IMG/VR virus record: IMGVR_UViG_3300037042_003348 | Coordinates: 3,965 to 67,964 of that record | Length of the DNA: 64,000 bases | Origin: a virus | Direction: 5' to 3' (one strand) | Part shown: positions 15,101 to 46,912 of the stretch, in pieces | How positions within the stretch are numbered: position 1 is the first letter of the stretch | How the letters are laid out: every line of letters begins with the position of its first letter | Notes under the pieces: generated by a model | The model's database searches: none | Told to the model about the DNA's origin: nothing | What the model saw: only the letters and a program-made list of their open reading frames with translations | Made by a program: the position numbers and the translations under genes

Positions 15101-18090
15101 TCCCTGGTATCTTCGAATATGACACTATGCAAGCCATGTCGGATTACGGCGAATGGACGGCATTGCAGCGTGGTGATGTGGTTGACAAAATCAGAGCCAT
15201 TCGTGGCAAGGTCAGACAGACACTAAAGATCGAGGACACACTTGATGCTATTCAGCAAGCTAAAGAATGGCTTGAGAATGGCGTCAGTCCTGAAGAGGTG
15301 TCACGACGGCTGGTTGAAGAAGGTCGACTTCCAAAATCAACAGGTCGTGAGCAGGCGACACCTGACAGTATTGAGCGTGACTTGATCGCTGAGTTCAACA
15401 AGCTTAAGAAGGGATTGCCGGTATCTGCAGAGTCTCGAGAAGGACAACTGAAGACTGCATTAAGCACAGCCAAGACAGCTGGCCGAAACAGGCTCGAGTT
15501 GCTGGACAAGGATATTGAACTGCTTGAAGAAGCAGTCGCTAAACGTACAGCGATAGTGAAGTCTGTTGATGAGCGGACCCCGTTAAAGCCAGATACCGAA
15601 CTGGCTGAGATCAGAAAGAAGCTAGAGGACAAGAGGAAGCGAAGAGACGAGCTTAAGGCTGAGTATGAGACGATATTCCCACCAACCAAGAAACAGCGAC
15701 TAGAAACAGCTGAGGCGCAGACAGAGCGAGCTCGAGAGTCGATCAAAAGACTGCAAGATAAGTTGCGTCAACTCAAGGAAGGTAAAGACATAAGCCCAAC
15801 GCGACAGCCTGATCTTTTGCCGAACGAAATCCGAACTGAGCTCAAGATGTGGCAGGAGCGGTTCAAGGCCGCTAAGCAGGCCGCAAAAGAAGCCAATGAG
15901 GCACAGTACGAAGGCGAGGGAGGTGCCTTACTTCCTCCATCCGGCCGCAAGCAGCTTACTGAGGCTCAGAAGCTGAAGGCGTCTGAGAGAATGCTGCGAG
16001 AGCAGATTGACGCAATCAAGGCTGACATCAAGGCACTCGAGAACGGCACATGGGCTCCAGCTAGTTTGGCTGCAACTACGCCAACTTCAGAGCTCAAGAC
16101 TGCTTTGAAGGCCGAGCTTGATGCCTTGAGGGCTGTTCGTAAGAAGGCTCAAGAGGCTAGCCCTGCGTACCAAGCCAACCAGGAACGAAAGTATTGGGAG
16201 CGATACCGCAAAGGTCAGGAAAAGCGTCTGGCGTTCTGGGAGAAGCGTCGTGTCGAAGCGGCTGGCGGAATACTTCCTGTTCCACGCAAGAAGCGTACGA
16301 TTACAGAGGAAGCCATCCTCGACAAGAACTTGGAGATCGAGAAGCTTAAGTACGAAGCCATGTACGAGATCGAGAAGGCGAAACGTGCAACCTGGAACGC
16401 AGGTCAATGGATTGGTTATGGGCTGCTCGAGGCGACATCGTTAATACCGAAGACATTGATGCTCGGTATGGAAATGTCTTTCGTTCTTAGGCAAGGGTTC
16501 TTCTACTTGAGATCGCATCCAATCAAGGCATTCATGGCTGTGGTCGAGTCGATGCCTGCAGTGTGGAGTCAGCGATATGCTTTAGCTTCTGTCGACAGGC
16601 TTGAAAGTCGTCCGAACGCTAAGGAATATCTGCAAGGCGGTGTGGAGTTCACTAAGAAGGATGGCCCACAAGCGAAACTGGAAGAGATGTATCAGTCAGC
16701 TGTTATTCGCTGGCTCGAGAACACGAAGACTCCATGGCTGTTCCCGTTTCGTAAGTGGGTAGCTGCCTACGGGGCTTTCGAACGAGGCAACCGGACTTTT
16801 GCCAACATTATGAAAGCTGACTTGTACGACATTCAAAAGCGTGACACGTTAGCTGCGCGTGAGCTCTTCAAGGTTAGTACCGAATGGACCGAGGATGACG
16901 TTAAGGAGACTGGCAGGATAACAAACATCTTCAGCGGGCGAGGAACCGGTCTCAAGGGTGGAAACCCATGGCTCGACTTCTTCTTCTTAGCTAGGCGATG
17001 GACGTGGTCTAGGATCCAGGCTGATTTTATTGTGCCATTCCAGTTAGCGACTCCGCAATGGCTAGGCCAATGGAATGCCGATCGCGGGATGCGAGTGTCG
17101 CTGGCTAAGCTGTACATTCAAACTCTTATGGGTCACGCTACGAAAATAGCCATGGGTCATTTCATCTACTCACTTCTTGCTGGTGATGATGAAGAAAAGA
17201 AGCCTACCTGGGAATGGGACACTCGGTCTAGTGACGCATGGGCTACTAAGGTTGGCGAGACGCGATTCAAGGATGATGGTGGCTTGATGCCAGCTATCGT
17301 TTTAGCTTCGCGGCTGCTGACTGGAACAATGAAGACGGCCGATGGCGAGATCAAGTCGATCTATGGAGAGGATGTTAACTATGGAGGCAAGGCTGCATCA
17401 GACTTCATAATCGATTTTGCTAGATACAAGATGGGTACTGGACCTGCAGGTATCATGGAGTGGTTTTCTGGAAAGGATGCTGTCGGAAGGAACATAGCAA
17501 AGAAGGATGATCCAACGGCAGTGTATAGACATATTGTGTGGTCTCGTGTTAAGCCGTTAACATGGGGCGAAATAGCTTCAGCCGAGAAGGAGCTAGGAGT
17601 CGCAACTGGAACGCTTGCATCGCTCGAGGCGTTGTTTGGTACGTCTGTTTCGACTTACGGCGACCGGACTACTTACCGAAATGCTAATGAAAAAGACAGG
17701 GAGGACCAGATCAAGACGGATCTCAGGGGAATGAAGTGGGACTCGCCAGATCCTGCGTACGAAGAGTTCTTAAACGCCGACCAGAAAGAAGCGTTCCGGC
17801 TGCGACGTGAAGAGCGGAAGGGAGCTTTGATGGCAGAAGCCTTCACTGATCCTAAGCTGGAGAACTTCAAGGATCAGGAAGGTTTCGACAAAGCTGTCGA
17901 AAGTCGTGACGAGGCTCTCAAGGAAGTTATTGGGGCTGGCATGACCTACGAGGATATTCAGACCCAGCTCATCGAATACTGGAAGCAAAACCATGGTTCA
18001 GCGTACGAACGCAAAGGAAATGGCTGGGTTTTGAAAGCCGCGATCGTTAACCGATTGCGAGTGGCTAGGGACGCACTTGAAGAAAAATAG
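3124..18090 (+). CDS. Giant (4988 aa) polyvalent virion/ejection protein: two zincin HExxH motifs, several ADP-ribosyltransferase-like domains, GNAT-like and glycosylase-like domains
   Basis: HEVVH (6697) and HEGLH (7525); R-S-E ART 'LYRG..FSTD..ESEV' (~11100-11290); polyvalent-type ART 'FKKWFGNSKVVDDNGDPLVMYHGT' (~14220); GNAT-like 'LDAFDTFLPVLYSVNGF'; Ala/Gly-rich N-terminus typical of ejection proteins. Confidence 0.8.
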   Translation: MSDFLEMFKAEKAKRTAEKAKENSANRSELERGWDRGVAGMKSSFAGAGAIGSTLLGDEEGAQQYIDSYQEYERQASENPATVDKFFSTDPKSGAFGSVSNFAGYTGGLIGSTGPSLIESAGASIGGAMIGGALVPAPDPADVATVPIGAAAGFFGKKYVKKLIADKVEQYVKDGIAKDAAERMANQAVKKNLAAKAGAGLASSQATAVPASGQMYGKGRKDGYDNPYSALALGQLSGLSEAVLGSVPGAVMSFIGKSAAKDVAKEFGLKEAAGYVYDLVTAAPKAGAKEGIQEAFQASLESVNETINDPKKKLFTRENFMNWAEAFAGGAFIGGLIGSGSTTYKAASDTKSAIQARRAQLEKARTKGWVSKPEAAELGIAGENRPDRKADLERQLEEVKAAEAQAIAAEEEAKAAEEQGETPPGLLVGRGRSGGGVSQSPPSLPPQATPPAVVAPTTDQQVPPTTPPATLPSQPQQLQQQPQVQPDDILSRDPTDGDMTPEEYEAWKRAKAARDAASQSQSPQQQPPVPPAVTPTAPPTAPPVPPSGMTPEEQEAFERASVDEEQSAAQSQTPPPPTAETPPSAPRKERSVRKDRLVASPESEPAPSATSQRSQPESEQAAVAETPEAEQVSDTTPPSSSSRAAAPQDPSRPTTQSEESTETPATSYEPSEAEITDELTKRFAGKVERPGVPLHGVQRGVARRSVIGKKYVSEGLADLEKEMTGAGFNEGSTVAMIQGLADPWTMNPEGNVDEKTGKAIPGGLQDESGRSLETGVKLGEKLWNQHFSEMEALGIGTKIDANTKQSVLNKAWASKGKQGLVRIGKMQGGKFVEDKERTAKARKVIEDAFRFSHGKPLETSKQAPSKPTTPSKPSRPAVTPVASSVVAPVTSTPVALPADPVGKTTTSSPQASPPPLPKTATPPPLPSNQGTRSPIDPASIPAPVSRVQLDAVPENEIYSRKGSDDKVRYLVKDSEGMDSIYDTIEEAQEESERKKSTKAESKAKQEPKSSGAVSEESQRDEEAKDAPKTKKGGDSNEVQAKERQQGQTNADADAKAEAEGQVGDKGAQAADKTPSPGSSSVDSTKTPSTSEPKAPPKRLSEWEQGVMELLNTITAFKGASFELSEADQTVKVTRPDGLSTKIHFGADELLDRIAKRRGEPQWNGAYIFKSGRPEDGNIYLRSDTDHTYVLNHEVVHWLEDAGIITPAEVKKYGGREGLAEAYGEWAATRARPENTLFEKIYDFFEQIFDLDARFFKKLNERVDSTKGEAKAPTQKTTSTKVDKKTPAPDVDAKSETKAETAKQTAAKDLFDGYDLPRLQELVSRLGEAGVDIKATDRDGIIKELVGMPKVMALLEQRLPKPKPKAKSKPPKSPTQRPKPAPAGYVPQQIGDATVVEPETKVEKQQEKILNDMGVTLRVFVGGSRNIPGYYDGTNNTIWLNRAYIAFMDEKWKREGKPDNSMAWGLFMHEGLHAIRDKYPKTWKKLYEWVNARDEAGLIEAGENYVSDFTSVRDEGGPEAAFADQYLERLKIDEALMQDEQLSRYIEDRAGTFEFWNELGKSEPGILAKIGQWFRKALRFAEPSTTDPDTLAGQVRLAIESAMKENGIETSGSRASPARTDSSSVKKKKSSSGVENERKARTLDEVRSRVAKDYDLTVSSEPIQMIDGRSFSSLDPDVVGTGLLVQDADAAMQRMMTESLQEAGVPEEIASTVKAPSSAEVDYAFRLTDGSRYWYELSATGFVKDFFGLSRKLTERLIDIVAGTSGGQKPTDNLRVAVASMAQDMQGRPVSVGTRDESSLTAALSPAMLETHKFGNFSDTMQVLGGLRPGVKPLPTIDLQMAKVFGVQHAAIASDPRMYEAMSRFLIKLRDAQNAMLKNGEQPYESWQIQALLWVAQRDTSDPDSFNIGMPKIVAQLKKAGIPTPGGKITEETLMDPRTSDVLAPTSKIIPESYTATIGTWNNLTKVGKESAEVLEELKAIDAPWARKMVDEFEKIQRRTMRAFGNRRPPKPGNKTRQKSVASWLLSVIMNKSPNSHELSRVDTDAWGTFEGAASPNIRFPLNLGAVGDTEEGGGTKRYVPTKDHREQFLSVLGKYLKQESQAASQFIPADLGSHDTFSILVRRYDKVGITESELEEISDGLGRPISYKQVPNGWQLDINIRGFDKTEGQKAESSDVQRIHDVMQKFALKGAVRYDVLPRLYESSYIKKSDYNKHIRNLENEIRKNSDTGGSGEALGYTEDGGASDYAAVVEQIKGIATKQESAFRKWTKDARERVAKRKVQFGDQQGPDSGQRYSPGRRSEPAGDGRGRDQSRKYSPLEGAPSSQGATGPDPRLVDVAEKYARENGIDLKRQAEYVKVDEDRAKRISKAYEDMPHDPQDPKVKEAYQELAKQTKAQYDALVADGYTFTFYDNESDPYAGNPMNAMRDLRQNKSMAVYGTSAGFGTKGVTSGYVDDNPLLVDTGVRWKDQNEVERPVNAVELFRAVHDTFGHGLEGSGFRARGEENAWQAHVRLFTGSAIGAMTTGTRGQNSWLNFGPYGEKNKTAKVEDTIFADQKTGLMPEWTWTEGRAADYDSSRASVGRRDIPQPPSIIAKVLSEKSDADVLKEYTQKWKGAPNRGPFLRVIRGQVPTQQDSIAVWEDDRAARLLLDEIDGSPEINRVLYRGTTATELDRFVADSEVRELPRGFSTDKKIARKFSDGGVIVVEQGARGVSVGGKYESEVISRGPFEIISDKTESGSRVLRVRQLNYSDTTNKEIDDGTTRQETGRSQDDGSRAAAGRSGKEATAAIRSRIGPNGRAWSRSQNSRTVGGYGVVASYKSDSPEWNEVGVATPNFVELQKSGKSAAQFASAINAARESQGKLGASVYVYPEEDYRDMRLFLTEDGKAGFALKDSGEVGVSDIVSVFNTANNAHRGVSYSMIRLAVEEGGNTLDAFDTFLPVLYSVNGFKVISRTKWNGEFAPDGWSKEEYLDFNNGEPDVVFMAYDPKRTDIYRHGSGEGKVFDDYDEAVESQRLAALNYLETANEEIDDGGKKRDGRRAAVTRGDLRDDSEQDRPGMGSNSGSTPSYGRAKEGAVSYVGRHYSKEARESLDVKFRGTGIPGAENRRLRGTDDDRIKKRIYFYIDTAGEIKPEMGVGSFAHEVKLDNLYDPDSKLIEYPGDPNKFESAIVDAGYDGYISKSFGMAVLLGPQHTNVPVRRAKEYEKGQGDRYSPVRQAKRKRDPEVTKAAQDLKAGLIDRDQYQRIVDMRMPLRKFDEVPIPASKEDMLRGLGKRKAGERLKRDLIQNPEDIAKGTLLEARLDIPAYDEENVWIVSLHEPRSDLNKGSAGRVVAYTPTSVLRNVTFGVTETAALNIAAGKPKSTIATMRGEYVPMTAKQAYELAETNKDQWVEIGMNPVRHTYFYDKNTQAPVESAEEVVQVGGMVLAKNPVLGKRENYRYSPSRKDDLLDWLIQNLEEQGVIKPEKTPDPKPTGTKYARTEGQRTFVGDSPRESYGPRKVEERQQKAIAELAANPGRPYEIIAQMDAKPAPLTDMEDAILNARIRQLKNDGDIQGSDRKEWLDLNRTVQRGHSEWGYAGHAAQAELADDFSVEGLTRRHTDHVGEDPKSEKLATYADLADRIDKMETEKADLIEKLAQEAIARQKAEENQKPPPKEKIGTKRATLMKKVADGFAAFQNAWSGGTTGRPAVARQAESSAFKKWFGNSKVVDDNGDPLVMYHGTDKDFNVFENRGGKVSVLFSTFDVDRKGFFFAKDKGLSLEYGSKLVPVYLSIQKPANFLDSKEWPKIKEGLVERGWNERYLDRTDAWELFDVDESNDGAKLIKDLKSMGYDGAIIEEPSWQDENGEYGVSHVAFDNTQIKSATGNVGTFDATNPDIRYSPSRQEPDIKAAAASIVATLREMGVSSELELESQVNANMPNVTPEQMQVIKEAWDESVKKTKLESPLGDNPDQAEIGARAKELMKLAIEAGHGATPGTWQEVVDVVHAQLSIEVPGIFEYDTMQAMSDYGEWTALQRGDVVDKIRAIRGKVRQTLKIEDTLDAIQQAKEWLENGVSPEEVSRRLVEEGRLPKSTGREQATPDSIERDLIAEFNKLKKGLPVSAESREGQLKTALSTAKTAGRNRLELLDKDIELLEEAVAKRTAIVKSVDERTPLKPDTELAEIRKKLEDKRKRRDELKAEYETIFPPTKKQRLETAEAQTERARESIKRLQDKLRQLKEGKDISPTRQPDLLPNEIRTELKMWQERFKAAKQAAKEANEAQYEGEGGALLPPSGRKQLTEAQKLKASERMLREQIDAIKADIKALENGTWAPASLAATTPTSELKTALKAELDALRAVRKKAQEASPAYQANQERKYWERYRKGQEKRLAFWEKRRVEAAGGILPVPRKKRTITEEAILDKNLEIEKLKYEAMYEIEKAKRATWNAGQWIGYGLLEATSLIPKTLMLGMEMSFVLRQGFFYLRSHPIKAFMAVVESMPAVWSQRYALASVDRLESRPNAKEYLQGGVEFTKKDGPQAKLEEMYQSAVIRWLENTKTPWLFPFRKWVAAYGAFERGNRTFANIMKADLYDIQKRDTLAARELFKVSTEWTEDDVKETGRITNIFSGRGTGLKGGNPWLDFFFLARRWTWSRIQADFIVPFQLATPQWLGQWNADRGMRVSLAKLYIQTLMGHATKIAMGHFIYSLLAGDDEEKKPTWEWDTRSSDAWATKVGETRFKDDGGLMPAIVLASRLLTGTMKTADGEIKSIYGEDVNYGGKAASDFIIDFARYKMGTGPAGIMEWFSGKDAVGRNIAKKDDPTAVYRHIVWSRVKPLTWGEIASAEKELGVATGTLASLEALFGTSVSTYGDRTTYRNANEKDREDQIKTDLRGMKWDSPDPAYEEFLNADQKEAFRLRREERKGALMAEAFTDPKLENFKDQEGFDKAVESRDEALKEVIGAGMTYEDIQTQLIEYWKQNHGSAYERKGNGWVLKAAIVNRLRVARDALEEK
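6230..6310 (+). CDS. Overprinted small basic peptide (26 aa, MKSKPKSGSKGKPMPMPMPKPKPKGK), +1 frame of the giant gene
   Basis: Strong SD GGAGGTGA 5 nt before ATG; Lys/Pro-rich composition like small basic phage peptides. Confidence 0.55.
   Translation: MKSKPKSGSKGKPMPMPMPKPKPKGK
9782..10126 (+). CDS. Overprinted small protein (114 aa), +1 frame of the giant gene
   Basis: AAGGA upstream; protein-like N-terminus (MKFGKILTPEEAERLWGIP..); spans the RYSPGR linker. Confidence 0.45.
   Translation: MKFGKILTPEEAERLWGIPRTGELVIMPQLSSKSKASQQSKNQPSGSGQKMQESASQSEKSNLAINKDQTQDKDIPQDDDPNRPETEEDAIRAESIRRLKAHHQAKGRQGQTRG
11396..11566 (+). CDS. Overprinted small protein (56 aa, ..LDLMEELGVDRKTAERWADMA), +1 frame
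   Basis: Start context AGGAGATTGATGATGG is identical to that of the stand-alone gene at 38889; follows the R-S-E ART domain. Confidence 0.55.
   Translation: MMVQPDKKQEDRKTTVAEQQPDEAEKKQPPPSGVVLDLMEELGVDRKTAERWADMA
12209..12397 (+). CDS. Overprinted small protein (62 aa), +1 frame
   Basis: Same AGGAGATTGATGATGG start context; amphipathic helix SPEEIYATIQNKIDQEW; follows the GNAT-like domain. Confidence 0.5.
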   Translation: MMAVRNETEEEQRSPEEIYATIQNKIDQEWGQTLGQPQATGELKKEPSATSEGTTQRKLESR

Positions 18091-30328: not shown

Positions 30329-30796
30329 TCACGACTGGATAGAGTTGGCTTCTTCTTGGATCGAGTACCGAAACGCGAATGCATCTTCGTTGCAGTCTTT
30401 GTAGAAATTCGGCAAAATGTTCATTGCACGAAACCCAAGCGATCGTAGAAACAACTGTGCGTCCAGATTGGTCTCTCGCACTCCCAAGGTGATTCGGTTT
30501 CGACGTTGGAAAGCCAACTTGGAAACCAATTTCTCAATCATGGCTTTTCCAACTCCTGATCTTCGGAAGTCGGGATGAACTGCGAACGCAAGAATATGGA
30601 TTCTGTTCTTGTGTAGTTCGTAGATCATGAAGCCAGCAACCACCTCATTTCGCTCGGCCACCATGCCAATGCAGGTTCTTTGGCGTAACGCACGAATGAA
30701 CTCTTCTTCGGTCCAAGGATCTGGTGAGCCGTCTCTTTCAATCGCCAGCACATCTGGCATGTCTCGCCTGATTAGCCATCGTACGTGCATACTCAT
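30329..30796 (-). CDS. rimI: RimI-like GNAT N-acetyltransferase
   Basis: 'VRWLIRRDMPDVLAIE..WTEEEF..AVHPDFRRSGVG..VRETNLDAQLF..GF..FY..EDA'. Confidence 0.85.
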   Translation of the reverse strand: MSMHVRWLIRRDMPDVLAIERDGSPDPWTEEEFIRALRQRTCIGMVAERNEVVAGFMIYELHKNRIHILAFAVHPDFRRSGVGKAMIEKLVSKLAFQRRNRITLGVRETNLDAQLFLRSLGFRAMNILPNFYKDCNEDAFAFRYSIQEEANSIQS

Positions 30797-30972
30797 TCTG
30801 CCTGCTCCTTTTGCTTATCAACCTTGGCCTGGACTTCGCTGCGATTCACCGACACGTCTTTCGGCGCGACGATCCCTAATCTTACCTTATCGCCACGAAT
30901 TTGCACGACAGTTATCGTGATCCCACCTTCGATGACGATCTGCTCGTTGGTCTTGCGACTTAGTATTAACAT
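30793..30972 (-). CDS. csrA: Carbon storage regulator CsrA (59 aa; absent from ORF track)
   Basis: Hand translation: MLILSRKTNEQIVIEGGITITVVQIRGDKVRLGIVAPKDVSVNRSEVQAKVDKQKEQAE; ATGA overlap with rimI. Confidence 0.92.
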   Translation of the reverse strand: MLILSRKTNEQIVIEGGITITVVQIRGDKVRLGIVAPKDVSVNRSEVQAKVDKQKEQAE

Positions 30973-31898: not shown

Positions 31899-32247
31899 TT
31901 GTTTCTTCCTTAAGGCAATCTTGAGCATGCAAGAAGCAGTTACCGAACTCCACCATCGCAGCCCCGAGCGATCCGTGGAACGTGTGCTGCAGGCCGTAGT
32001 GAACGCGGTAAGTTGTTTTGCACAATCTCCTGCGTCTCTTTCTGGTAACCTGAAATACAACTTCAAAATCCCCTACACTTCCACTGACAAGCTTTGCCGT
32101 CCACAAAGCTGGAACGCAGTACAAAGCAGCCCTGTCTCTTGCTGTGTCGATCGCAAGATTCGCCAACTGTTGTAAGGCTTCGTCCTCGCTGAATACGTCG
32201 CCTGGAACTTTGACTTTGTAGCAGTCGATAACATATTCACTGGCCAT
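31885..32247 (-). CDS. Hypothetical early protein
   Basis: AAGGGG before MASEYV; overlaps flanking genes. Confidence 0.55.
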   Translation of the reverse strand: MASEYVIDCYKVKVPGDVFSEDEALQQLANLAIDTARDRAALYCVPALWTAKLVSGSVGDFEVVFQVTRKRRRRLCKTTYRVHYGLQHTFHGSLGAAMVEFGNCFLHAQDCLKEETNATK

Positions 32248-33061
32248 GAATAACCCCTTCCACTTCGTAAAGATCGAAACTTCCATAAGGCTTGCAAGCA
32301 TCCGAAAGCTTGTCGCCAATGTCCTCAAGCCCGCGATCCCAGAAACCTGCGCCATGCCCGTTACGTGTTAGCCAAAAGTCATGACCGCATTGTCCAGGAT
32401 CCAGGCCATTAAGCAGCTTCGCGTTGGCTTTGATGAAGTCCTTGCAGTCTGCACGCATTGTCTCGAGCACCATCGGATCAATTTCGTCCTTATCGAACAG
32501 GCCCAACGGCTCACCATTGTCATCAGTCGACGACCACAGAGCACACTCAACGTAGGCTGTGAAGAACTTATCGAAGTCCAATGGCTCAATAGCCTTGCGG
32601 ACTTTGCGAACCTTTCCGGCCTTCGTTAGCGTGGCTTGGTATTCCATAGCCAACACAAGTCGCTCGGCCAGTACCGACTCGCTCGCTAGCTTCTTGACTG
32701 TACAACCGATAAAGTTGCTTGAATGCAGCAGGCCGGTGGTAGTGTTGACTGTCAGCACGATGACCGGAAGCTCGTACGGCACACCGTTTGAACTTCCGCG
32801 TTGCACGCTTTCCTTGACTTCCAGAACCTTCGTCTTCGAGTAACCAGTAAGCTTAACCCAGTCACCCGCAGCGATCGTCTCCACAGGAACCTCGAACATA
32901 GCCGAGTAATACCGATGAGCCTCAGTTCCGCGTTTGGTGAACGCCCGTCCACGGCCGCCGCACTTAAAGCATTTTGTGCCGTGCATTGTGCAGTACGAAT
33001 ACTGACCCGATCCGCCGCAACGACCACATGTCTCCACCTCAAAACCGTTTGCGTCGTACAT
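32237..33061 (-). CDS. Early protein: N-terminal CxxCxGxG Zn finger fused to a conserved phage domain
   Basis: CGRCGGSG..CFKCGGRG; 'AYVECALWSS..GHDFWLTRNGHGAGFWDRG'; ACAGGAG RBS. Confidence 0.65.
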   Translation of the reverse strand: MYDANGFEVETCGRCGGSGQYSYCTMHGTKCFKCGGRGRAFTKRGTEAHRYYSAMFEVPVETIAAGDWVKLTGYSKTKVLEVKESVQRGSSNGVPYELPVIVLTVNTTTGLLHSSNFIGCTVKKLASESVLAERLVLAMEYQATLTKAGKVRKVRKAIEPLDFDKFFTAYVECALWSSTDDNGEPLGLFDKDEIDPMVLETMRADCKDFIKANAKLLNGLDPGQCGHDFWLTRNGHGAGFWDRGLEDIGDKLSDACKPYGSFDLYEVEGVIHGQ

Positions 33062-33084
33062 CTCTCAATCTCCTGTGTTGTGTG

Positions 33085-33468
33085 TTAGTTGTAATTGCCG
33101 CGTTCGACGATATCACCCCAACAACCGATTCGGAACCGGCCTCGAACGTACATGATCGTCAGTTCGTAACTGTCGCCTGTGTTTAGGTAATCGATCGATG
33201 GTGATCGTTTATTGCTGCCCCTGTAAATGTGCTCAACACCGAATGTTCCAAGGTCAGGGAACCATTGCTCGACGACCAACAACGTGTCGCGAACCAGGAA
33301 GCTGGTATGGCATCGCTTGTATTCATCTAATGAAGCCAGCTTAAAAAACGCTACGCGACACGCACGACGAGCTCGAGTCAAATACGCTGAACGTGTCTCG
33401 CCCGTCTTCTGGAGCCGTTTGCGACCACTGGAAGCCAAGTCGATTGCAGATTGGAAGTTCGTAAGCAT
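33085..33468 (-). CDS. Hypothetical early protein
   Basis: 'TFGVE..YLNTGDSYELTI..FRIGCWGDIVE' phage motif; ACAGGAG RBS. Confidence 0.65.
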   Translation of the reverse strand: MLTNFQSAIDLASSGRKRLQKTGETRSAYLTRARRACRVAFFKLASLDEYKRCHTSFLVRDTLLVVEQWFPDLGTFGVEHIYRGSNKRSPSIDYLNTGDSYELTIMYVRGRFRIGCWGDIVERGNYN

Positions 33469-33498
33469 TGAAAAGTCTCCTGTGATTGTTTCTGAACC

Positions 33499-33546
33499 TG
33501 GGGACGCAGCCCGCAGGCTGCCGCACTTGGCCTAACCCCACCAAGC
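33499..33546 (-). ncRNA. Pseudoknot RNA motif, copy A
   Basis: GCUUGG-UGGGG-UUAGG-CCAAGU-GCGG-CAGCC(UGCG)GGCUG-CGU-CCCCA. Confidence 0.75.
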
Positions 33547-33547
33547 C

Positions 33548-34516
33548 TCAATACTTTGGATGTTCTCTCCATTCCAGCTTTACGCCTTCAGGCAGGTTTG
33601 CTGTCCTGAACGTCTTGAACACTTCGACCATGTGATCGAACTCTTCCTTGGTTACAAGCTTGCAAGTACTGCTCCAGTTCACGGCCAGTTCGTTGGAGTG
33701 TTCGTAGTAAATGCAATTCACTTTGGTTCCAAAATTATCGAGAACAAACAGCTCAACCTCCAGCTTCTTCTCAGCTTTTCGAACAGTCTTGTCGTGAGCA
33801 GTCAGTAGCTCAGCACGTTTCTTCGCTTTCATAGCTGCAGCCTTTTCGGCATCTCGGGCTGCAATCGCTTCAGCTGAGTAGTACCCTGATGCGCGACGTT
33901 CTGCGACCAGCTCACGAGTTGCGATCGTAACAGGTAACCAATGTCCACGAGTTGCTTCCGACTCAAACTCCTTGCCCGTCCATAGCTCGAGCTGTTTGAT
34001 AGCTGCATCAGCCTCGTTCTTCCATCGATCGACAATACCAAGATCCTCAAAAGCAATACTAAGCTCATCGGCCGATCGGCACTCAAGCAACGCAGGAAGC
34101 TCGTCTCCTGTGCATCGAACGTGATCGCGAAAGATCCGCAAGCAATCTTCCTTGCTCTTGGCATCGCTTCCGTTGCTGCCATGGTGTTCCACGTAGCTCA
34201 GCCCGAGGTGACCGGCAAGCCAATAGAACGCATTGGATGCGCAGTGCATTGGGACGCCTTGCCATGTGCTCAGGTGCAGGTCCACGAACGGCTTCAGCTC
34301 TGGGCGAAGCGACAGGATGAGCTCGTGACAGCAACCCCCTCCAGCGTCGACCATTACACCTCGAGCGTTTCGTTCTCTGATGTTAGCAGTGATGGAGAAG
34401 TCCTCGTGCCCGTTCTTGCATTCGTCATCCAGACGGATACGAATGTCGACAATCCGATTGCTATTGCCTTCAACGATCGAGTGACGGAGCGTGTTTGTTT
34501 TGGTCGCGGTTTTCAT
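33548..34516 (-). CDS. Hypothetical early protein
   Basis: ACAGGAG RBS before MKTATK; 'IRLDDECKNGHEDFSITA..GGCCHE..LHLS..GVPMH..NAFY' phage motif. Confidence 0.7.
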   Translation of the reverse strand: MKTATKTNTLRHSIVEGNSNRIVDIRIRLDDECKNGHEDFSITANIRERNARGVMVDAGGGCCHELILSLRPELKPFVDLHLSTWQGVPMHCASNAFYWLAGHLGLSYVEHHGSNGSDAKSKEDCLRIFRDHVRCTGDELPALLECRSADELSIAFEDLGIVDRWKNEADAAIKQLELWTGKEFESEATRGHWLPVTIATRELVAERRASGYYSAEAIAARDAEKAAAMKAKKRAELLTAHDKTVRKAEKKLEVELFVLDNFGTKVNCIYYEHSNELAVNWSSTCKLVTKEEFDHMVEVFKTFRTANLPEGVKLEWREHPKY

Positions 34517-34562
34517 TGTCTTGATCTCCTGTGGTGTGTGGGTTGGTTGGTGGTGGTTAATA

Positions 34563-34901
34563 CTAGTCTGCAGCCGATTCGCCATCGCTCGTGAATGCAT
34601 CACAACCATGCTCATCAGTGCATTGATATCCGCAATACTGGCAAGGAATCGCCTCGAACTGCACCGTGAACGCATCATCAGGGCATGAGAAGTCGAACTC
34701 CTTCGCAAACCCGCCATCACTTTGAATAGCCTGTCCAACAGTCGCGAGCAGTAATCCAAAGGACGCTGGGTACTCCTCAAAATCGAGCTCTACAGCGATT
34801 CCAGCCGCAAGGGCTGCGATTGTCTGCGAAAGTGTCTCGCCCTCGTATGCGTAGCTGTGGGCAGGGTTCTCGATGCTGGTGATCGTGATCTTGAACGACA
34901 T
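34563..34901 (-). CDS. Hypothetical early protein
   Basis: ACAGGAG RBS; acidic, C-terminal CxxC. Confidence 0.6.
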   Translation of the reverse strand: MSFKITITSIENPAHSYAYEGETLSQTIAALAAGIAVELDFEEYPASFGLLLATVGQAIQSDGGFAKEFDFSCPDDAFTVQFEAIPCQYCGYQCTDEHGCDAFTSDGESAAD

Positions 34902-34932
34902 TTTCTTATCTCCTGTAAATGTAAATGAAACC

Positions 34933-34982
34933 TGGGGACGCAGGCTGTAAAACCTGCCGCACTCGGCCTAACCCCTCCGAGT
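34933..34982 (-). ncRNA. Pseudoknot RNA motif, copy B
   Basis: ACUCGG-AGGGG-UUAGG-CCGAGU-GCGG-CAGGUU(UUAC)AGCCUG-CGU-CCCCA. Confidence 0.75.
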
Positions 34983-35620
34983 TATGATCGCTTCGCGATC
35001 GCTATCCTGACCGCGTTGCGTGTTCTGTTGCTGTCCTCGAGCGACAGCAAGTAATCAGCTCGAACCGCCCCGCAATCGCCCAGTCTGTGCTGTTGCGCAA
35101 AGCTTTTACTACCGTGCTCGCAGTTACCTGACTTAACGCTATCCTCGAGCGTTACCCACGTCGTGCTAGCAAGCTTGAAGATCCTCGCGTTGATCTTAGC
35201 TATCCTTTTGCGAGTGATGACCGCTTCGCGAAGCAGCTTCGCGATCGCTTTTGCGCCGAGCAGCATTTGGTCTCGGGTCGGGTGAAAAGTCTCACCCGAC
35301 CGTAGCTGCACAAGACAGATGCCGAGCTCGTCCAGAGACCATTGGTAGCCTCGAGGTGCTGCGAGGAACTTGCAAAGCCAGTAGGGATTGAGTTGGATCT
35401 CGAGCGTTGACGGGTGGTAGCACTTTGGCCACCTGTACGCAGCCGGATGATAGATCGGCTTGCCTGTTAGTGTTGTGTAGTGAAAGCTTCGTCCAATGCT
35501 TTTGTGCGTTTTAATTTGCGTTGTGTAATCGACTGGGCATCTGCCGTACTTGCTGAACAGTGCAGCGCGAAAGAACGAGTAGAGGCGGCTTTTGGTGGTT
35601 TTTGTGGCTTGTGCGTTCAT
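34982..35620 (-). CDS. Hypothetical early protein
   Basis: ACAGGAG RBS; 'VTLEDSVKSGNCEHGSKSF' motif. Confidence 0.6.
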   Translation of the reverse strand: MNAQATKTTKSRLYSFFRAALFSKYGRCPVDYTTQIKTHKSIGRSFHYTTLTGKPIYHPAAYRWPKCYHPSTLEIQLNPYWLCKFLAAPRGYQWSLDELGICLVQLRSGETFHPTRDQMLLGAKAIAKLLREAVITRKRIAKINARIFKLASTTWVTLEDSVKSGNCEHGSKSFAQQHRLGDCGAVRADYLLSLEDSNRTRNAVRIAIAKRS

Positions 35621-35651
35621 TGTCTTGATCTCCTGTGTTGTTGTGTGTGAA

Positions 35652-35837
35652 TTACAGAGGGGCAGGTCCGACAGTGGAAGTCTGCACTAGATCCCAGCCC
35701 TGGGTGGCTCCTTCGATATCCTCGAGTCGCATCCAACCGATCGACCGTGCATTACCGATGCAGGCTGCAGCGATCATGTACGACCGTCTCGAGGTGCCCT
35801 TAACGAATACTACGTTGTACCAATGATTCTTAGCCAT
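35652..35837 (-). CDS. Hypothetical early protein
   Basis: ACAGGAG RBS before MAKNHWY. Confidence 0.55.
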   Translation of the reverse strand: MAKNHWYNVVFVKGTSRRSYMIAAACIGNARSIGWMRLEDIEGATQGWDLVQTSTVGPAPL

Positions 35838-35865
35838 TTTCGATCTCCTGTGAATGAAACTAAAC

Positions 35866-35911
35866 CGGGGACGCGCCCGAAAGCGCCGCACTAGGCCTAA
35901 CCCCTCCTAGT
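35866..35911 (-). ncRNA. Pseudoknot RNA motif, copy C (overlaps the upstream stop codon)
   Basis: ACUAGG-AGGGG-UUAGG-CCUAGU-GCGG-CGCU(UUCG)GGCG-CGU-CCCCG. Confidence 0.75.
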
Positions 35912-36292
35912 TAATCGCTCAACCTCTTTGCTGTAAGCTGCCGCAGCTTTTGACCGTGCGCTGAAGTACTGATATTCGAGCTCGTTGAAACCCTCCATAG
36001 GGTCAAAACCTAAGTCCGTGACGACAGCATATTTGCCGTTATCTCGGCAGTCATCCTGCATCTCTACTAACGCCACTCGAAAGGCTGGGTTGAACTTCAG
36101 AATCTTGTTGCCGTCGATGTCTTCCAGCTTGTCTTCCAGTCGCGATACGTGTTCCTTAGTTAACTCTTCCGACAAAGTCCGAAGGACGCATGGAACTGAC
36201 GTTTCGTCACACTCCATGTCTTCGACTCGTCCAGATGTGAGGTCCATGAGCACTGCAATTTCTTCGATTGACAACTTATTGAATTTTTCCAT
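35897..36292 (-). CDS. Hypothetical early protein
   Basis: ACAGGAG RBS. Confidence 0.6.
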   Translation of the reverse strand: MEKFNKLSIEEIAVLMDLTSGRVEDMECDETSVPCVLRTLSEELTKEHVSRLEDKLEDIDGNKILKFNPAFRVALVEMQDDCRDNGKYAVVTDLGFDPMEGFNELEYQYFSARSKAAAAYSKEVERLTRRG

Positions 36293-36321
36293 TTTCTTAC
36301 TCCTGTGATTGTTTCTGAACC

Positions 36322-36367
36322 TGGGGACGCCCCCGAAGGGGCCGCACTCGGCCTAACCCCACCGAGC
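36322..36367 (-). ncRNA. Pseudoknot RNA motif, copy D
   Basis: GCUCGG-UGGGG-UUAGG-CCGAGU-GCGG-CCCC(UUCG)GGGG-CGU-CCCCA. Confidence 0.75.
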
Positions 36368-36574
36368 CTAGCAGTCGATCCGCCTGTACTCGCGAGAATA
36401 GCCTTCCTCCGACACGTTCCAGAACAGATACTTGTCACCGTTGGCGGTCTTGCCGTGGAACGCCTGCTCAGACTCGATCCAGCAAATATTGTAGACAGTC
36501 GCGTGGACCGCCGCGCCGAAGGGACTTAGTCCAGCGATCAGCCGAACCTCCTCGATGGTGTTGGTTTTTGGCAT
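36368..36574 (-). CDS. Hypothetical early protein
   Basis: AAGGA RBS; bounded by motif copies D and E. Confidence 0.6.
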   Translation of the reverse strand: MPKTNTIEEVRLIAGLSPFGAAVHATVYNICWIESEQAFHGKTANGDKYLFWNVSEEGYSREYRRIDC

Positions 36575-36608
36575 TTGTTTTATCCTTCTTAGGTAATTTG
36601 AGAAACAT

Positions 36609-36656
36609 TGGGAACGCTCCCTTGCGGGAGCCGCACTCGGCCTAATCCCCCCGAGC
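36609..36656 (-). ncRNA. Pseudoknot RNA motif, copy E
   Basis: GCUCGG-GGGGA-UUAGG-CCGAGU-GCGG-CUCCC(GCAA)GGGAG-CGU-UCCCA. Confidence 0.75.
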
Positions 36657-37160
36657 CTAGAACGGTGCTGGTGACTCGTTTTGAACCACTACTTGCTCGA
36701 CAGCCGAGTTGTCGTACCACTGCTTGTTAAAAGCGTAACCAAGGCTCTTCTTGCCTTCCTTGATACCAAACTGGCGGTAGTCGCTGCAGAGCTCGATTGC
36801 TTTGGCGATCGCTGCGGCCAAGTCGTCGAAGCTTGCCACAACGCGTTCCTCTGCGTACTCGGAATCATCCTGAGTCACGACCGTGAACTTCTTGATCTCA
36901 ACCAGCTTTCCGCCTGCCCAGTCGTAGAACTGAAAGTCTCGATACCCGTCGCAGTATTCGAACTTACCCACATCGCCGAGCGTGAAGCCAACCAGCACAT
37001 ACTGAGCGTAATCTGTACCCATCACATCCATACCAGACAAGTATTCAGCACCTTGGTATCGTTCCGACAAATATTTTCCAGCTGCCGCCAACGAGCTGAA
37101 CGAGCTGACCGAGTTGCCATCAATGCCTTCGTACTTGACTTTGAACTTTTTGGCTGCCAT
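36657..37160 (-). CDS. Hypothetical early protein, first gene of the operon
   Basis: ACAGGAG RBS downstream of a consensus promoter. Confidence 0.65.
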   Translation of the reverse strand: MAAKKFKVKYEGIDGNSVSSFSSLAAAGKYLSERYQGAEYLSGMDVMGTDYAQYVLVGFTLGDVGKFEYCDGYRDFQFYDWAGGKLVEIKKFTVVTQDDSEYAEERVVASFDDLAAAIAKAIELCSDYRQFGIKEGKKSLGYAFNKQWYDNSAVEQVVVQNESPAPF

Positions 37161-37229: not shown

Positions 37230-37258
37230 ATCTTATCGACCAGGGTCAACCGTGTCAA
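37230..37258 (-). promoter_or_regulatory. Strong sigma70 promoter of the early operon
   Basis: TTGACA-17 nt-TAAGAT on the minus strand; AT-rich upstream. Confidence 0.8.
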
Positions 37259-37596
37259 ATAGGATATTATCGGAAATCTATTTGGCACACTATCCAGAAG
37301 TGTGTTTCACCAATGATTTGACAGGGTAAACGCGATGGAATATATTTTTGGAAGATTATTCGGGATGTGGCATCCCCAAGCGTCCAAGGCGAGAGCACAG
37401 ACCAAGATGTCACCGTAGTCCACGCGGACTCGAGGAGTGATCGGTAAGCAGGCGGAAGCCTACACCACCGAGCGACGTGAGGGGGCGGCAATAGCCGGTT
37501 CGGGGCACTTGGAAGCGACATGCTAGCCAGGGCTGATGCAGCGTCGATAAACAAATGCGGTCATAGGAATCTTTGCGCTCAGAAAGGTACTTTACG

Positions 37597-45120: not shown

Positions 45121-45615
45121 GTGCTGAGTGGAATCAGCATGTAAGAGCAGAATATAGATCATCAATACTCGCCTTCGGGCGTGTCTATGTGCTTGCTCTT
45201 GCACAACCGCTCACCCCCCGATTCCACACCTGGGGGTTAGCACGTATTTGGGGCATGAGTGTAATGACGGGCAACCGTCGCTTATGCCAGCAATCGTTTG
45301 AGCTAATTGCCCAATCTGTGGAAGACCGCCAATGTGCATGGGAACGAGTCTGGGAAGCGCCCTGTGGCGTGGATCTTGCTCCTAACCTCAAGGGTCGTAC
45401 AGGAGCAACAGGCTGACGGTGGGTGGACGCGAGCAAAAGGGAACGGTGATCTGTCTTGTCTACCTTGGTAGACAAGACTTTAAGCGGCGCAGGCCGATCA
45501 CTCTTACCAGAGCTAAATAAACCCGTTGGTCAGTACCAGGAAGAAAATTCCTGGTTTTCGGCAAGTAGCGAGATTGCTTATCCTTATATGGGCCTGGGGT
45601 GCGCAAAAAACGCAC
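45121..45615 (+). ncRNA. Candidate long structured non-coding RNA
   Basis: Many stems; GTGGAATC/GATTCCAC complementarity; perfect 12-bp inverted repeat at 45453-45478; no convincing ORF. Confidence 0.45.
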
Positions 45616-46223
45616 TAACACGTCGCGGGCTCTTCGACACGCTGTCGGTAGCGAATAACCGAGCTGACTGACACGCCAAGAGCTTGTGCGATCTCCTTGT
45701 TGGTTAACCCCTTTTCTCGAAGCTTAGCTACTCGCTTAAGATCGACTCCTGGCTTGATCGCGCCGAGCTTCCTTCCTGTGTAAACACCACGTTCCTTCGC
45801 TGCTGCGACACCGGCTGCTTGACGCTCCTTGCGGTTAACTTGCTCGAGTTCTGCTACAGCGAAGAGGACTGACGCAATCATCTTCCCAATAGCACCATTA
45901 AAGTCGATCTGCTGGGAAACTGATACGACCCGAACGCCGTGTTCACACCAAGTGCATAGCGTCTGAACGCCATCCTTAATTGATCGAGAAATCCTATCCA
46001 TTTTGTAAACTACAATAGTTCCGATACCTCCTGCAAATACGTCTTTCTGGAGCTGCTCAAACTCTGGCCTGTCAAGGTTGTCTCCTGACTTACGATCGGA
46101 GTACCAAAGAACGTTAGCGGTGTTGAATCCATTTCCGATAAGCCACTTATTGATCTCTCGCCTTTGTCCTTGTTCGTTTTGTGAATCGGTACTGACGCGA
46201 ACGTAAACTGCTGTTAAAGTCAT
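45615..46223 (-). CDS. Small serine recombinase (resolvase/invertase) with C-terminal HTH
   Basis: 'YVRVSTDSQ..Q', 'SG..RP', 'VYKMDRISR', 'ERQAAG..A..G..GR'; AAAGGAG RBS. Confidence 0.92.
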   Translation of the reverse strand: MTLTAVYVRVSTDSQNEQGQRREINKWLIGNGFNTANVLWYSDRKSGDNLDRPEFEQLQKDVFAGGIGTIVVYKMDRISRSIKDGVQTLCTWCEHGVRVVSVSQQIDFNGAIGKMIASVLFAVAELEQVNRKERQAAGVAAAKERGVYTGRKLGAIKPGVDLKRVAKLREKGLTNKEIAQALGVSVSSVIRYRQRVEEPATC

Positions 46224-46239
46224 AGAAAATCTCCTTTGA

Positions 46240-46773
46240 TTAAACATGTTTCCAACTGTGACGATTGACGATTGACCAGATTCGGGTCATTGAAACAGAA
46301 AACTTCTTTGCGATGTTCACTGGTTTTTCTCCGGCTTCGTGTTGATTTCGAATTTCGATAATGTCAGCTTCTTTCAGTACTGACCTCCCATGTGTTTCTC
46401 CACGGCATCCCGTATCATGCAAAACCTTGTCGCTCTGGTTTTCAACAGCTGTGCCCCAACACAAATTGTCAAGATTATTATTTGAGCGGCAACCATCTAA
46501 ATGGCGACACTGATGACTGTTAGGCTTTGGTCCAACGTAAGTCTCAAGTACTAAGGAGTGGATGTAGGCTTGTCTTAACCCATTGTCGTTTTTGATTTTT
46601 ACGCACAAGTATCCTCTTTTGTTCAAAGGCGATACTGGTTTAGCTTTGCTCCAAGGTCTTGGCCCATGCTTTCCACGCACTGAAAGAACAGCTCCATTTT
46701 TGCTGATTGAGTAATCTGGAAAATTAGGAATTACTCGAAACCCGTCAGGTGGGTTAAAATCTACTTTAAGCAT
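46240..46773 (-). CDS. NUMOD4-HNH homing endonuclease
   Basis: 'IPNFPDYSISKNGAVLS', 'YIHSLVLETYVG..CRHLDG..NNNLDNLCWGT..N'; AAGGAG RBS. Confidence 0.88.
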   Translation of the reverse strand: MLKVDFNPPDGFRVIPNFPDYSISKNGAVLSVRGKHGPRPWSKAKPVSPLNKRGYLCVKIKNDNGLRQAYIHSLVLETYVGPKPNSHQCRHLDGCRSNNNLDNLCWGTAVENQSDKVLHDTGCRGETHGRSVLKEADIIEIRNQHEAGEKPVNIAKKFSVSMTRIWSIVNRHSWKHV

Positions 46774-46912
46774 CGTCTTGCTCCTTACGGCGAGATTGGT
46801 GTTCAAAAGCCTTCGTAGTTCACTACAACTGCGAGGGCTTTGTTTATTACATACTCGATTGTACCGCTAGCATCAATTAGAGTCAACAGCGGTCAATCCT
46901 AAATGACTAGTT

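What the first reader, a model, noticed from the sequence alone, without database searches (positions are those of the whole stretch)
33499..36656. Five copies of an unrecognised covarying pseudoknot RNA between early-operon cistrons
Seen (minus = mRNA strand): RCUNGG-N-GGGR-UUAGG-CCNAGU-GCGG-[hairpin]-CGU-YCCC at 33499, 34933, 35866, 36322 and 36609. Stem 1 covaries (CUCGG/CCGAG, CUUGG/CCAAG, CUAGG/CCUAG). The pseudoknot helix covaries (GGGG/CCCC to GGGA/UCCC in copy E). The inserted hairpin differs in every copy but always pairs, and in four of five is capped by UNCG or GNRA tetraloops, which points to RNA on this strand. UUAGG, UGCGG and CGU are invariant. Each copy starts at the upstream stop codon (copy C supplies the UAG) and ends ~15-25 nt before the next SD. 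There is no U-tract. I do not recognise a known family. Inference: a new small self-cleaving ribozyme, an exonuclease-blocking knot, a processing signal giving stable monocistronic mRNAs, or a protein/ligand-binding translational element.
Basis: partly seen in the sequence, partly recalled or inferred. Interest (0 to 1): 0.9.

Follow-up and report, generated by a model that had tools for sequence, protein, structure and literature searches.

The report
Pistol ribozymes lacking stem P1
Five gaps between genes of an uncultured phage each hold a stripped-down version of the known self-cutting "pistol" RNA that lacks a stem thought to be a fixed part of that class, so it probably chops one long message into shorter ones, though cutting is untested.

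Summary
The five repeats are real: 5 found against 0.22 expected by chance, and they are the only 5 in the 67,964-bp phage genome. They are not an unknown RNA class. Rfam's Pistol ribozyme model matches 4 of 5 below threshold (best 32.9 bits, cut-off 34.5).

Stem P1 and the A-rich linker are missing. One nucleotide joins the pseudoknot 5' strand to P2.

I found the same design in 18 other viral contigs and 15 metagenome loci, 47 distinct sequences in all. In 35 distinct sequences, 560 of 560 pair cells pair and 12 of 16 pairs show compensatory changes. Rfam's threshold finds canonical pistols in the same data but 0 of 17 P1-less copies.

Most likely these are working minimal pistol ribozymes that cut a host-promoter-driven nine-gene operon just after stop codons, 34-40 nt before the next start. 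Cleavage is untested.

I found no description in print. This scan noted the same design earlier in other phage genomes. Verdict: a new variant of a known kind.

The parts
36610..36656 (-). Copy A, P1-less pistol. PK-5' 36656-36651; linker 36650; P2-5' 36649-36646 (GGGA); UUAGG 36645-36641; PK-3' 36640-36635; GCG 36634-36632; P3 36631-36616 (GCAA loop); predicted cut G36615|U36614; P2-3' 36613-36610 (UCCC).
   Evidence: 62.5 bits with model R1. Rfam Pistol 22.5 bits, model positions 24-68. The upstream stop UAG at 36659-36657 abuts the element. The next ATG is at 36574.
36323..36367 (-). Copy B. PK-5' 36367-36362; P2-5' 36360-36357; UUAGG 36356-36352; PK-3' 36351-36346; GCG 36345-36343; P3 36342-36329 (UUCG loop); predicted cut G36328|U36327; P2-3' 36326-36323.
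   Evidence: 67.1 bits. Rfam Pistol 21.6 bits. Stop UAG at 36370-36368. The next ATG is at 36292.
35867..35911 (-). Copy C. PK-5' 35911-35906 (ACUAGG); P2-5' 35904-35901; UUAGG 35900-35896; PK-3' 35895-35890; GCG 35889-35887; P3 35886-35873; predicted cut G35872|U35871; P2-3' 35870-35867.
   Evidence: 63 bits. Rfam Pistol 19.2 bits. The upstream ORF ends ...LTRRG* on the UAG at 35899-35897 inside UUAGG. The next ATG is at 35837.
34934..34982 (-). Copy D. PK-5' 34982-34977; P2-5' 34975-34972; UUAGG 34971-34967; PK-3' 34966-34961; GCG 34960-34958; P3 34957-34940 (UUAC loop); predicted cut G34939|U34938; P2-3' 34937-34934.
   Evidence: 66.1 bits. Rfam Pistol 32.9 bits, E 0.0018, reached only by borrowing a hairpin in the upstream coding sequence as 'P1'. 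The stop UAA at 34984-34982 overlaps nt 1. The next ATG is at 34901.
33500..33546 (-). Copy E. PK-5' 33546-33541 (GCUUGG); P2-5' 33539-33536; UUAGG 33535-33531; PK-3' 33530-33525 (CCAAGU); GCG 33524-33522; P3 33521-33506 (UGCG loop); predicted cut G33505|U33504; P2-3' 33503-33500.
   Evidence: 67.1 bits. Not listed by Rfam even at E up to 10. Stop UGA at 33550-33548. The next ATG is at 33468.
32237..37160 (-). Nine-gene same-strand operon (167, 68, 131, 61, 212, 112, 322, 127 and 274 aa) with stereotyped ACAGGAG-type ribosome sites. The elements sit in 5 of its 8 internal junctions. The other three gaps are 31, 46 and 23 nt and have none.
   Evidence: gene map. Pfam and PHROGs find only unknown-function families or nothing.
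37230..37258 (-). Sigma-70-like promoter (TTGACA-17-TAAGAT, 10 of 12) about 70 nt upstream of the first gene. It is back to back with a plus-strand TTGACA-17-TATATT (11 of 12) at 37318-37346.
   Evidence: These are consensus matches only: the region's total count (14) is not above shuffles (15.5). They are, however, the two best matches and lie in the divergent gap.

Best explanation
Each repeat is a minimal, P1-less derivative of the pistol self-cleaving ribozyme.

Shown: a 6-bp pseudoknot (PK), a 4-bp P2 and a variable P3 hairpin, all supported by covariation. The pistol core is invariant: UUAGG, GCG, the closing G-C of P3 and a two-nucleotide G-U junction. P1 and the A-rich linker are absent, and one nucleotide joins PK-5' to P2-5'.

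Inferred by homology with solved pistols: once the 3' strand CGU-YCCC is transcribed, P2 closes the active site. The first G of GCG (pistol G40) then activates the 2'-OH of the G in CGU, with a hydrated Mg2+ as the acid, and the chain breaks between G and U.

Inferred consequences: the upstream message ends in a compact knot plus hairpin with a 2',3'-cyclic phosphate, which would hinder 3' exonucleases. The downstream message starts with 5'-OH-UCCCC and a 34-40 nt leader carrying its own ribosome site. That cuts a host-polymerase-driven nine-gene operon into six pieces with independent stability and translation.

Why losing P1 is tolerable (inferred from published geometry): P1 only caps the PK stack, the linker only docks into P1's minor groove, and P2 lies parallel to PK. 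So the 3' end of PK-5' and the 5' end of P2 are close together. An almost all-G-C P2 may compensate for the lost stem.
For: Core match to pistol: cmscan aligns UUAGG, the PK-3' strand, GCG, P3, GU and P2 of 4 of 5 copies to Pistol model positions 23/24-68.

Covariation: on a model-made alignment of 36 copies (35 distinct) from the window and 18 viral loci, 560 of 560 cells pair. 12 of 16 pairs change on both sides (PK 4 of 6, P2 3 of 4, P3 5 of 6). 0 of 500 shuffles reach any measure, and slid controls pair only 38-62%. The model encoded only P2 and P3, so PK pairing was not imposed. It found no member with a broken PK in 99 + 100 sources.

Invariant in 36 of 36: UUAGG, GCG, the P3 closing G-C, and G-U. 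This includes 5 copies that match neither scan pattern.

Strand: 37 wobble cells, for example G-U 19 times at PK pair 1, would be A-C mismatches on the other strand.

Placement: 32 of 36 have an ORF stop from -14 to +12 of element nt 1, and 32 of 36 have an SD and start 20-95 nt downstream.

P2 5' strand G+C is 71 of 76 in P1-less copies against 32 of 60 in canonical pistols found by the same pattern.

Geometry and roles: P1, PK and P3 are coaxial, P2 is adjacent and parallel to PK, and the linker forms an A-minor triplex on P1 (PMC11300833, passages). The G40.(G33-C41) triple, G42, purine 32 and the G53-U54 cut are from PMC6154101 (passages).

12 further distinct copies in metagenome loci all show 6 of 6 PK and 4 of 4 P2 pairs.
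Against: No cleavage was observed. The only RNA run that held any of the locus gave 5 short contigs from a 90-95% relative, and none lay on an element.

Every one of about 500 published pistols has P1 (PMC4604425, section 5), so activity without P1 and the linker is an extrapolation.

No copy reaches Rfam's gathering score.

Folding energies are not better than shuffles (z -0.9 to +0.95).

My scan patterns fixed TTAGG and TGCGG, so part of the core's invariance is by ascertainment. The copies within one phage, and the phages themselves, are related, so the counts are not independent events.

The proposed function (stability and uncoupling) rests on position alone. 'Early' rests on a consensus promoter match and on small ORFan genes.
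Confidence: 0.7

Rival explanations
1. A pistol-derived fold that no longer cleaves. It would be kept as a compact pseudoknot that blocks 3' exonucleases, stalls or releases ribosomes at the stop codon, or binds a phage or host protein. The processing, if any, would be done by a host RNase.
For: P1 and the linker are present in all published pistols and are gone here. The element abuts or overlaps stop codons in 32 of 36 copies. The phage encodes an RNA-binding CsrA in the same strand block. No cleavage data exist.
Against: A purely structural knot has no need to keep the unpaired catalytic positions (UUAGG, GCG, G-U) and the exact 2-nt P3/P2 junction invariant in 36 of 36 copies, while all helices drift freely. 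The missing parts are peripheral in the solved structures.
Confidence: 0.17
2. A DNA-level repeat, such as a phage promoter or operator, a recombination site, or a small mobile intergenic element. Its palindromes would then matter as DNA, not as RNA.
For: There are multiple copies per genome in intergenic DNA. About half of the relatives' copies are followed by a conserved palindromic hairpin.
Against: 37 G-U wobble cells pair only on the mRNA strand. The crossing PK/P2 arrangement with compensatory changes is an RNA pseudoknot signature. The core matches a known ribozyme. The orientation is always that of the flanking genes.
Confidence: 0.04
3. A different ribozyme class with the same wiring, for example a pseudoknot-type hammerhead or an HDV-like double pseudoknot, instead of a pistol.
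For: [quoted passage not shown] The helix order (stem, second stem 5' strand, first stem 3' strand, hairpin, second stem 3' strand) also recalls HDV P1/P2/P4.
Against: A permissive cmscan against all 4227 Rfam families lists only Pistol on the elements, with no hammerhead or HDV match. The loop is the short pistol-type UUAGG, not the longer hammerhead loop described. There is no P3/L3 for an HDV fold.
Confidence: 0.03

Closest known systems
Canonical pistol self-cleaving ribozyme (Rfam RF02679; Harris et al. 2015, PMC4604425; structures reviewed in PMC6154101)
   Same: 6-bp pseudoknot to the strand between P2 and P3; P2; variable P3; core U-U-A-R-G and G-C-G; a 2-nt G-U junction where cleavage occurs; phage association; placement between genes.
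   Different: There is no P1 hairpin and no A-rich linker. The PK 5' strand is a free 5' segment joined to P2 by a single nucleotide, instead of being the loop of P1. P2 is almost all G-C (71 of 76 against 32 of 60). The element is 45-49 nt here, against a 68-position Rfam model. It falls below Rfam's gathering score.
Pseudoknot-containing hammerhead ribozyme (PMC11300833)
   Same: Same helix connectivity and overall fold as pistol, and hence the same as the retained part of this element.
   Different: The hammerhead core and longer loop are absent here. That form also keeps the stem (helix IV) and the A-minor linker that this element lacks.
Minimal HDV-like 'theta' ribozymes of gut phages (PMC10879173)
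   Same: A natural stripped-down form of a known self-cleaving class that lacks a peripheral helix (P4 there, P1 here). Both are confined largely to tailed-phage genomes and are missed by earlier searches.
   Different: A different ribozyme class and active site. Theta ribozymes cut at their 5' end beside tRNAs. These would cut near their 3' end between protein-coding cistrons.
RNase III processing sites between early cistrons of T7-like phages, and synthetic ribozyme insulators of the RiboJ type (both recalled, no call)
   Same: They work the same way. They punctuate a polycistronic transcript, leave a structured 3' end upstream and give the next cistron a defined leader.
   Different: Those depend on a host enzyme (RNase III) or on an engineered hammerhead plus hairpin. 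Here the cut would be made by the RNA itself, in nature, by a pistol-type core.

Membership tests
Pistol ribozyme (RF02679) | Six-base-pair pseudoknot involving the strand that links the 5' sides of P2 and P3 | tested here: met
   6 pairs, 100% paired in 35 distinct sequences. 4 pairs show compensatory changes and 1 shows G-U/A-U/G-C. The search model did not encode this helix.
Pistol ribozyme (RF02679) | Stem P1, with the pseudoknot 5' strand being the loop of P1 | tested here: not met
   Only 1 nt lies between the PK 5' strand and P2 in all 36 copies, so no P1 3' strand can exist. Rfam aligns only model positions 23/24-68 for 3 copies. The one full-length alignment borrows an unrelated coding-region hairpin whose loop is not the PK partner.
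Pistol ribozyme (RF02679) | A-rich linker between P1 and P2 that docks in the P1 minor groove | tested here: not met
   It is replaced by one nucleotide (U 18, A 12, G 6, C 0 of 36). Canonical pistols from the same scan have TAAA(T/C)A-type linkers.
Pistol ribozyme (RF02679) | P2 and P3 helices in the canonical order | tested here: met
   P2: 4 pairs, 3 covary. P3: 6 counted pairs, 5 covary. All cells pair.
Pistol ribozyme (RF02679) | Conserved core: U-U-A-purine-G before the PK strand and G-C-G after it (G40 base, G33-C41 pair, G42, purine 32) | tested here: met
   UUAGG and GCG are invariant in 36 of 36 copies and align to the upper-case consensus of RF02679. The roles are from PMC6154101. 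Part of this invariance is fixed by my scan patterns. 5 copies outside both patterns also keep it.
Pistol ribozyme (RF02679) | G-U cleavage dinucleotide forming a junction of strictly conserved length between P3 and P2 | tested here: met
   G-U lies directly between the last P3 pair and P2-3' in 36 of 36 copies. The junction rule is from PMC4604425, section 5.
Pistol ribozyme (RF02679) | Score at or above Rfam's gathering cut-off (34.5 bits) | tested here: not met
   0 matches in the window at gathering. The best is 32.9 bits. 0 of 17 P1-less copies in 9 loci passed, while 10 canonical pistols in the same call scored 36-66 bits.
Pistol ribozyme (RF02679) | Mg2+-dependent site-specific self-cleavage giving 2',3'-cyclic phosphate and 5'-OH ends | not testable with these tools
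   This needs bench work or end-specific RNA-seq. The one RNA run available was uninformative.

The most novel reading that the evidence does not exclude
The 45-49-nt P1-less form is a fully active natural minimal pistol whose folding is gated by translation. The upstream stop codon abuts the pseudoknot/P2 strands or lies inside them, and in 6 of 36 copies it is the UAG of the catalytic UUAGG itself. A terminating ribosome must therefore melt the ribozyme. Cutting, and so the release and fate of the next cistron's message, would then depend on how heavily the upstream gene is being translated.
Probability: 0.15. Interest if true: 0.8.

Novelty: new variant of a known kind. Interest (0 to 1): 0.62.

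Why it matters
If these cut, three things follow.

1. Stem P1 and its A-minor linker would be dispensable. They are drawn as constant parts of every published pistol consensus. The natural minimal pistol would shrink to about 45 nt, which is useful for ribozyme mechanism work and for compact genetic insulators.
2. Standard annotation misses the form entirely. Rfam's threshold found 0 of 17, so phage genomes hold more ribozymes than catalogues show.
3. Pistol ribozymes have no established biological role (review PMC6765202, passages). Here they sit in a simple, testable setting: five sites in one host-promoter-driven operon, each fixed between a stop codon and the next ribosome site.

Tried and rejected
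Rfam at gathering score on the whole window gave nothing. Only the permissive mode showed the pistol link.

blastn of the 3.6-kb region against 50,697 phage records gave no match.

HDV-like and hammerhead readings were considered from the helix order. I dropped them because no such Rfam match appeared and the loop is pistol-type.

N4-like virion-polymerase hairpin promoters were considered because of the 4988-aa ORF. That ORF is a polyvalent protein with an ART domain, and the phage has Erf, exonuclease, helicase, primase and terminase genes, so the idea was dropped.

Folding energy gave z -0.9 to +0.95 for the five copies, with similar values on the opposite strand, so it is not evidence either way.

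RNA evidence: one metatranscriptome run held 0.11 of the sampled words. When laid, it gave 5 short contigs, 2 of them 90-95% alike, and none on an element. It says nothing about cleavage or expression.

My descriptor found only three weak 4-of-6 PK chance matches and no real copy. This does not show absence from prophages.

My first filter demanded perfect PK and P2 complementarity, so the 100% pairing on alignment A1 was partly by construction. I repeated the count on a model-made alignment. The script had an indexing bug and found 1 element. It was corrected.

Rows dropped: L309 (a duplicate of L296), L039 (an odd copy with a 5-nt P2 and a 95-nt span that scored only 16.4 bits), L026 and L355 (cut by contig ends).

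Literature: searches found no P1-less, minimal or truncated pistol. The 2015 discovery paper itself was not read.


Full report
WHAT IS THERE

On the minus strand the window carries five 45-49-nt elements at 36610-36656, 36323-36367, 35867-35911, 34934-34982 and 33500-33546. The 15-nt core occurs 5 times against 0.22 expected by chance. There are no further copies in the whole 67,964-bp virus record from which the window comes. Two details needed correcting: stem 1 is 6 bp, and copy C's upstream ORF stops on the UAG inside the invariant UUAGG.

WHAT IT IS

Rfam at gathering score finds nothing. In permissive mode the Pistol ribozyme model aligns four of the five copies (32.9, 22.5, 21.6 and 19.2 bits; cut-off 34.5), and copy E is not listed.
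- "Stem 1" is the pistol pseudoknot (PK).
- GGGR/YCCC is P2.
- The inserted hairpin is P3.
- UUAGG and GCG are the conserved core.
- The G-U of CGU is the cleavage dinucleotide.

Three of the four matches cover only model positions 23/24-68. The fourth is full-length only because a hairpin in the upstream coding sequence is borrowed as P1.

In every copy a single nucleotide separates the PK 5' strand from P2. The P1 3' strand and the A-rich linker therefore cannot exist. The published consensus of about 500 pistols has P1, P2, P3 and a pseudoknot formed by the P1 loop (PMC4604425, section 5).

THE SAME DESIGN ELSEWHERE

Pattern scans of the viral collection returned three kinds of hit, which I sorted by script:
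- chance hits in coding DNA;
- canonical pistols with a P1 and a TAAA(T/C)A linker;
- P1-less copies like these.

I built a covariance model that encodes only P2 and P3. It recovered 36 copies, 35 of them distinct, in the window and 18 viral loci. It found no copy with a broken pseudoknot in 99 + 100 sources. Complete related phage records of 61-73 kb carry 2-4 copies each.

The metagenome scan added 22 full-length copies in 15 loci, 12 of them new sequences, giving 47 distinct in all. Every new one has 6 of 6 PK and 4 of 4 P2 pairs.

As a control, Rfam's gathering threshold found 10 canonical pistols (36-66 bits) and 0 of 17 P1-less copies in one and the same call.

STRUCTURE SUPPORT

On the 36-copy alignment, 560 of 560 cells form standard pairs. 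12 of 16 pairs change on both sides (PK 4 of 6, P2 3 of 4, P3 5 of 6). 0 of 500 shuffles reach any measure, and partners slid by 1-3 columns pair in only 38-62% of cells.

UUAGG, GCG, the closing G-C of P3 and the G-U are invariant in 36 of 36 copies.

Caveats:
- My scan patterns fixed TTAGG and TGCGG. Five copies that match neither pattern still keep the core.
- Copies and phages are related, so cells are not independent events.
- Minimum-free-energy folding is not better than shuffles.

The 37 G-U wobble cells place the function on the mRNA strand.

WHY A PISTOL WITHOUT P1 IS PLAUSIBLE (INFERENCE)

[quoted passage not shown] P1 plus linker is thus a self-contained peripheral excursion that leaves and re-enters the core near the same point, and both are lost together here.

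The catalytic parts are the G40.(G33-C41) triple, G42, purine 32 and the G53-U54 junction, and all are retained.

P2 is nearly all G-C in P1-less copies (71 of 76) but mixed in canonical pistols found by the same pattern (32 of 60). This is consistent with compensation.

CONTEXT AND LIKELY ROLE

The elements lie in 5 of the 8 internal junctions of a nine-gene minus-strand operon (37160-32237) of small ORFans with ACAGGAG-type ribosome sites. The operon sits downstream of the better of two back-to-back sigma-70-like promoters. These are consensus matches only.

Each element begins 0-1 nt after the upstream stop codon, or overlaps it. It ends 29-35 nt before the next start. Cutting at G|U would therefore leave 34-40-nt leaders. 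Across the family, 32 of 36 copies have this stop-element-SD layout.

The most likely mechanism is self-cleavage. It would leave a knotted 3' end with a cyclic phosphate on the upstream piece and a 5'-OH leader on the next. That would split the transcript into three single-gene and three multi-gene pieces.

Processing of polycistronic transcripts has been suggested but not established for other bacterial ribozymes (PMC6765202, passages). That 5'-OH ends and structured 3' ends slow bacterial mRNA decay is recalled knowledge, not a call.

WHAT IS NOT SHOWN

Cleavage itself is not shown. The one RNA run with any match was uninformative.

NOVELTY

Seven literature searches found no P1-less, minimal or truncated pistol.

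Unchecked notes of this scan report the same design in other phage genomes. I reached the pistol reading, before I opened them, and their claims about other DNA were not re-tested.

I classify the finding as a new variant of a known kind. It works like a pistol and descends from one, but it fails three membership features: P1, the linker and the Rfam score.

Noticed in passing
L054:4333-4352, L072:7209-7225, L225:3130-3150, L262:2598-2615, L318 and others (relatives, not the window): In about 14 of 31 relatives' copies a stable hairpin follows P2-3' within 0-4 nt. It is often of the GACAC..GTGTC type and its stem covaries. None of the five window copies has one. It could be a 5'-end protector for the downstream piece (a RiboJ-like layout) or a stacking surrogate for P1, as earlier scan notes on 'permuted' pistols suggest.
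   Followed up: partly
window 30796-30972 (-): A 59-aa phage-encoded CsrA (PF02599, 77.5 bits) lies immediately upstream of an acetyltransferase gene (30329-30796), on the same strand as the ribozyme operon. It might act on the stereotyped ACAGGAG leaders that cleavage would release.
   Followed up: partly
window 3124-18090 (+): A 4988-aa single ORF with an ART-PolyVal ADP-ribosyltransferase domain and a phage L5 gp82-like domain. This is a 'polyvalent' multi-domain protein, not an N4-type virion RNA polymerase.
   Followed up: partly
window 35621-35654, 34517-34565, 33062-33084 (-): Three junctions of the same operon have no ribozyme. Instead they have short CA-rich leaders ending in ACAGGAGAT. 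The element is therefore optional per junction.
   Followed up: no
L061:4057-4710; L078:323-2090: Canonical pistols also come in clusters in other phage contigs. One sits about 250 nt upstream of two tRNA genes (L061), and three lie within 1.8 kb (L078).
   Followed up: no
L039:2738-2832: An odd relative: the same PK and core, but P2 is AUCCC/GGGA-like and P3 is a long branched insert of about 60 nt. It scores only 16.4 bits with my model.
   Followed up: no
window 45615-46806 (-): A serine-recombinase-type DNA invertase and an HNH endonuclease gene lie side by side.
   Followed up: no
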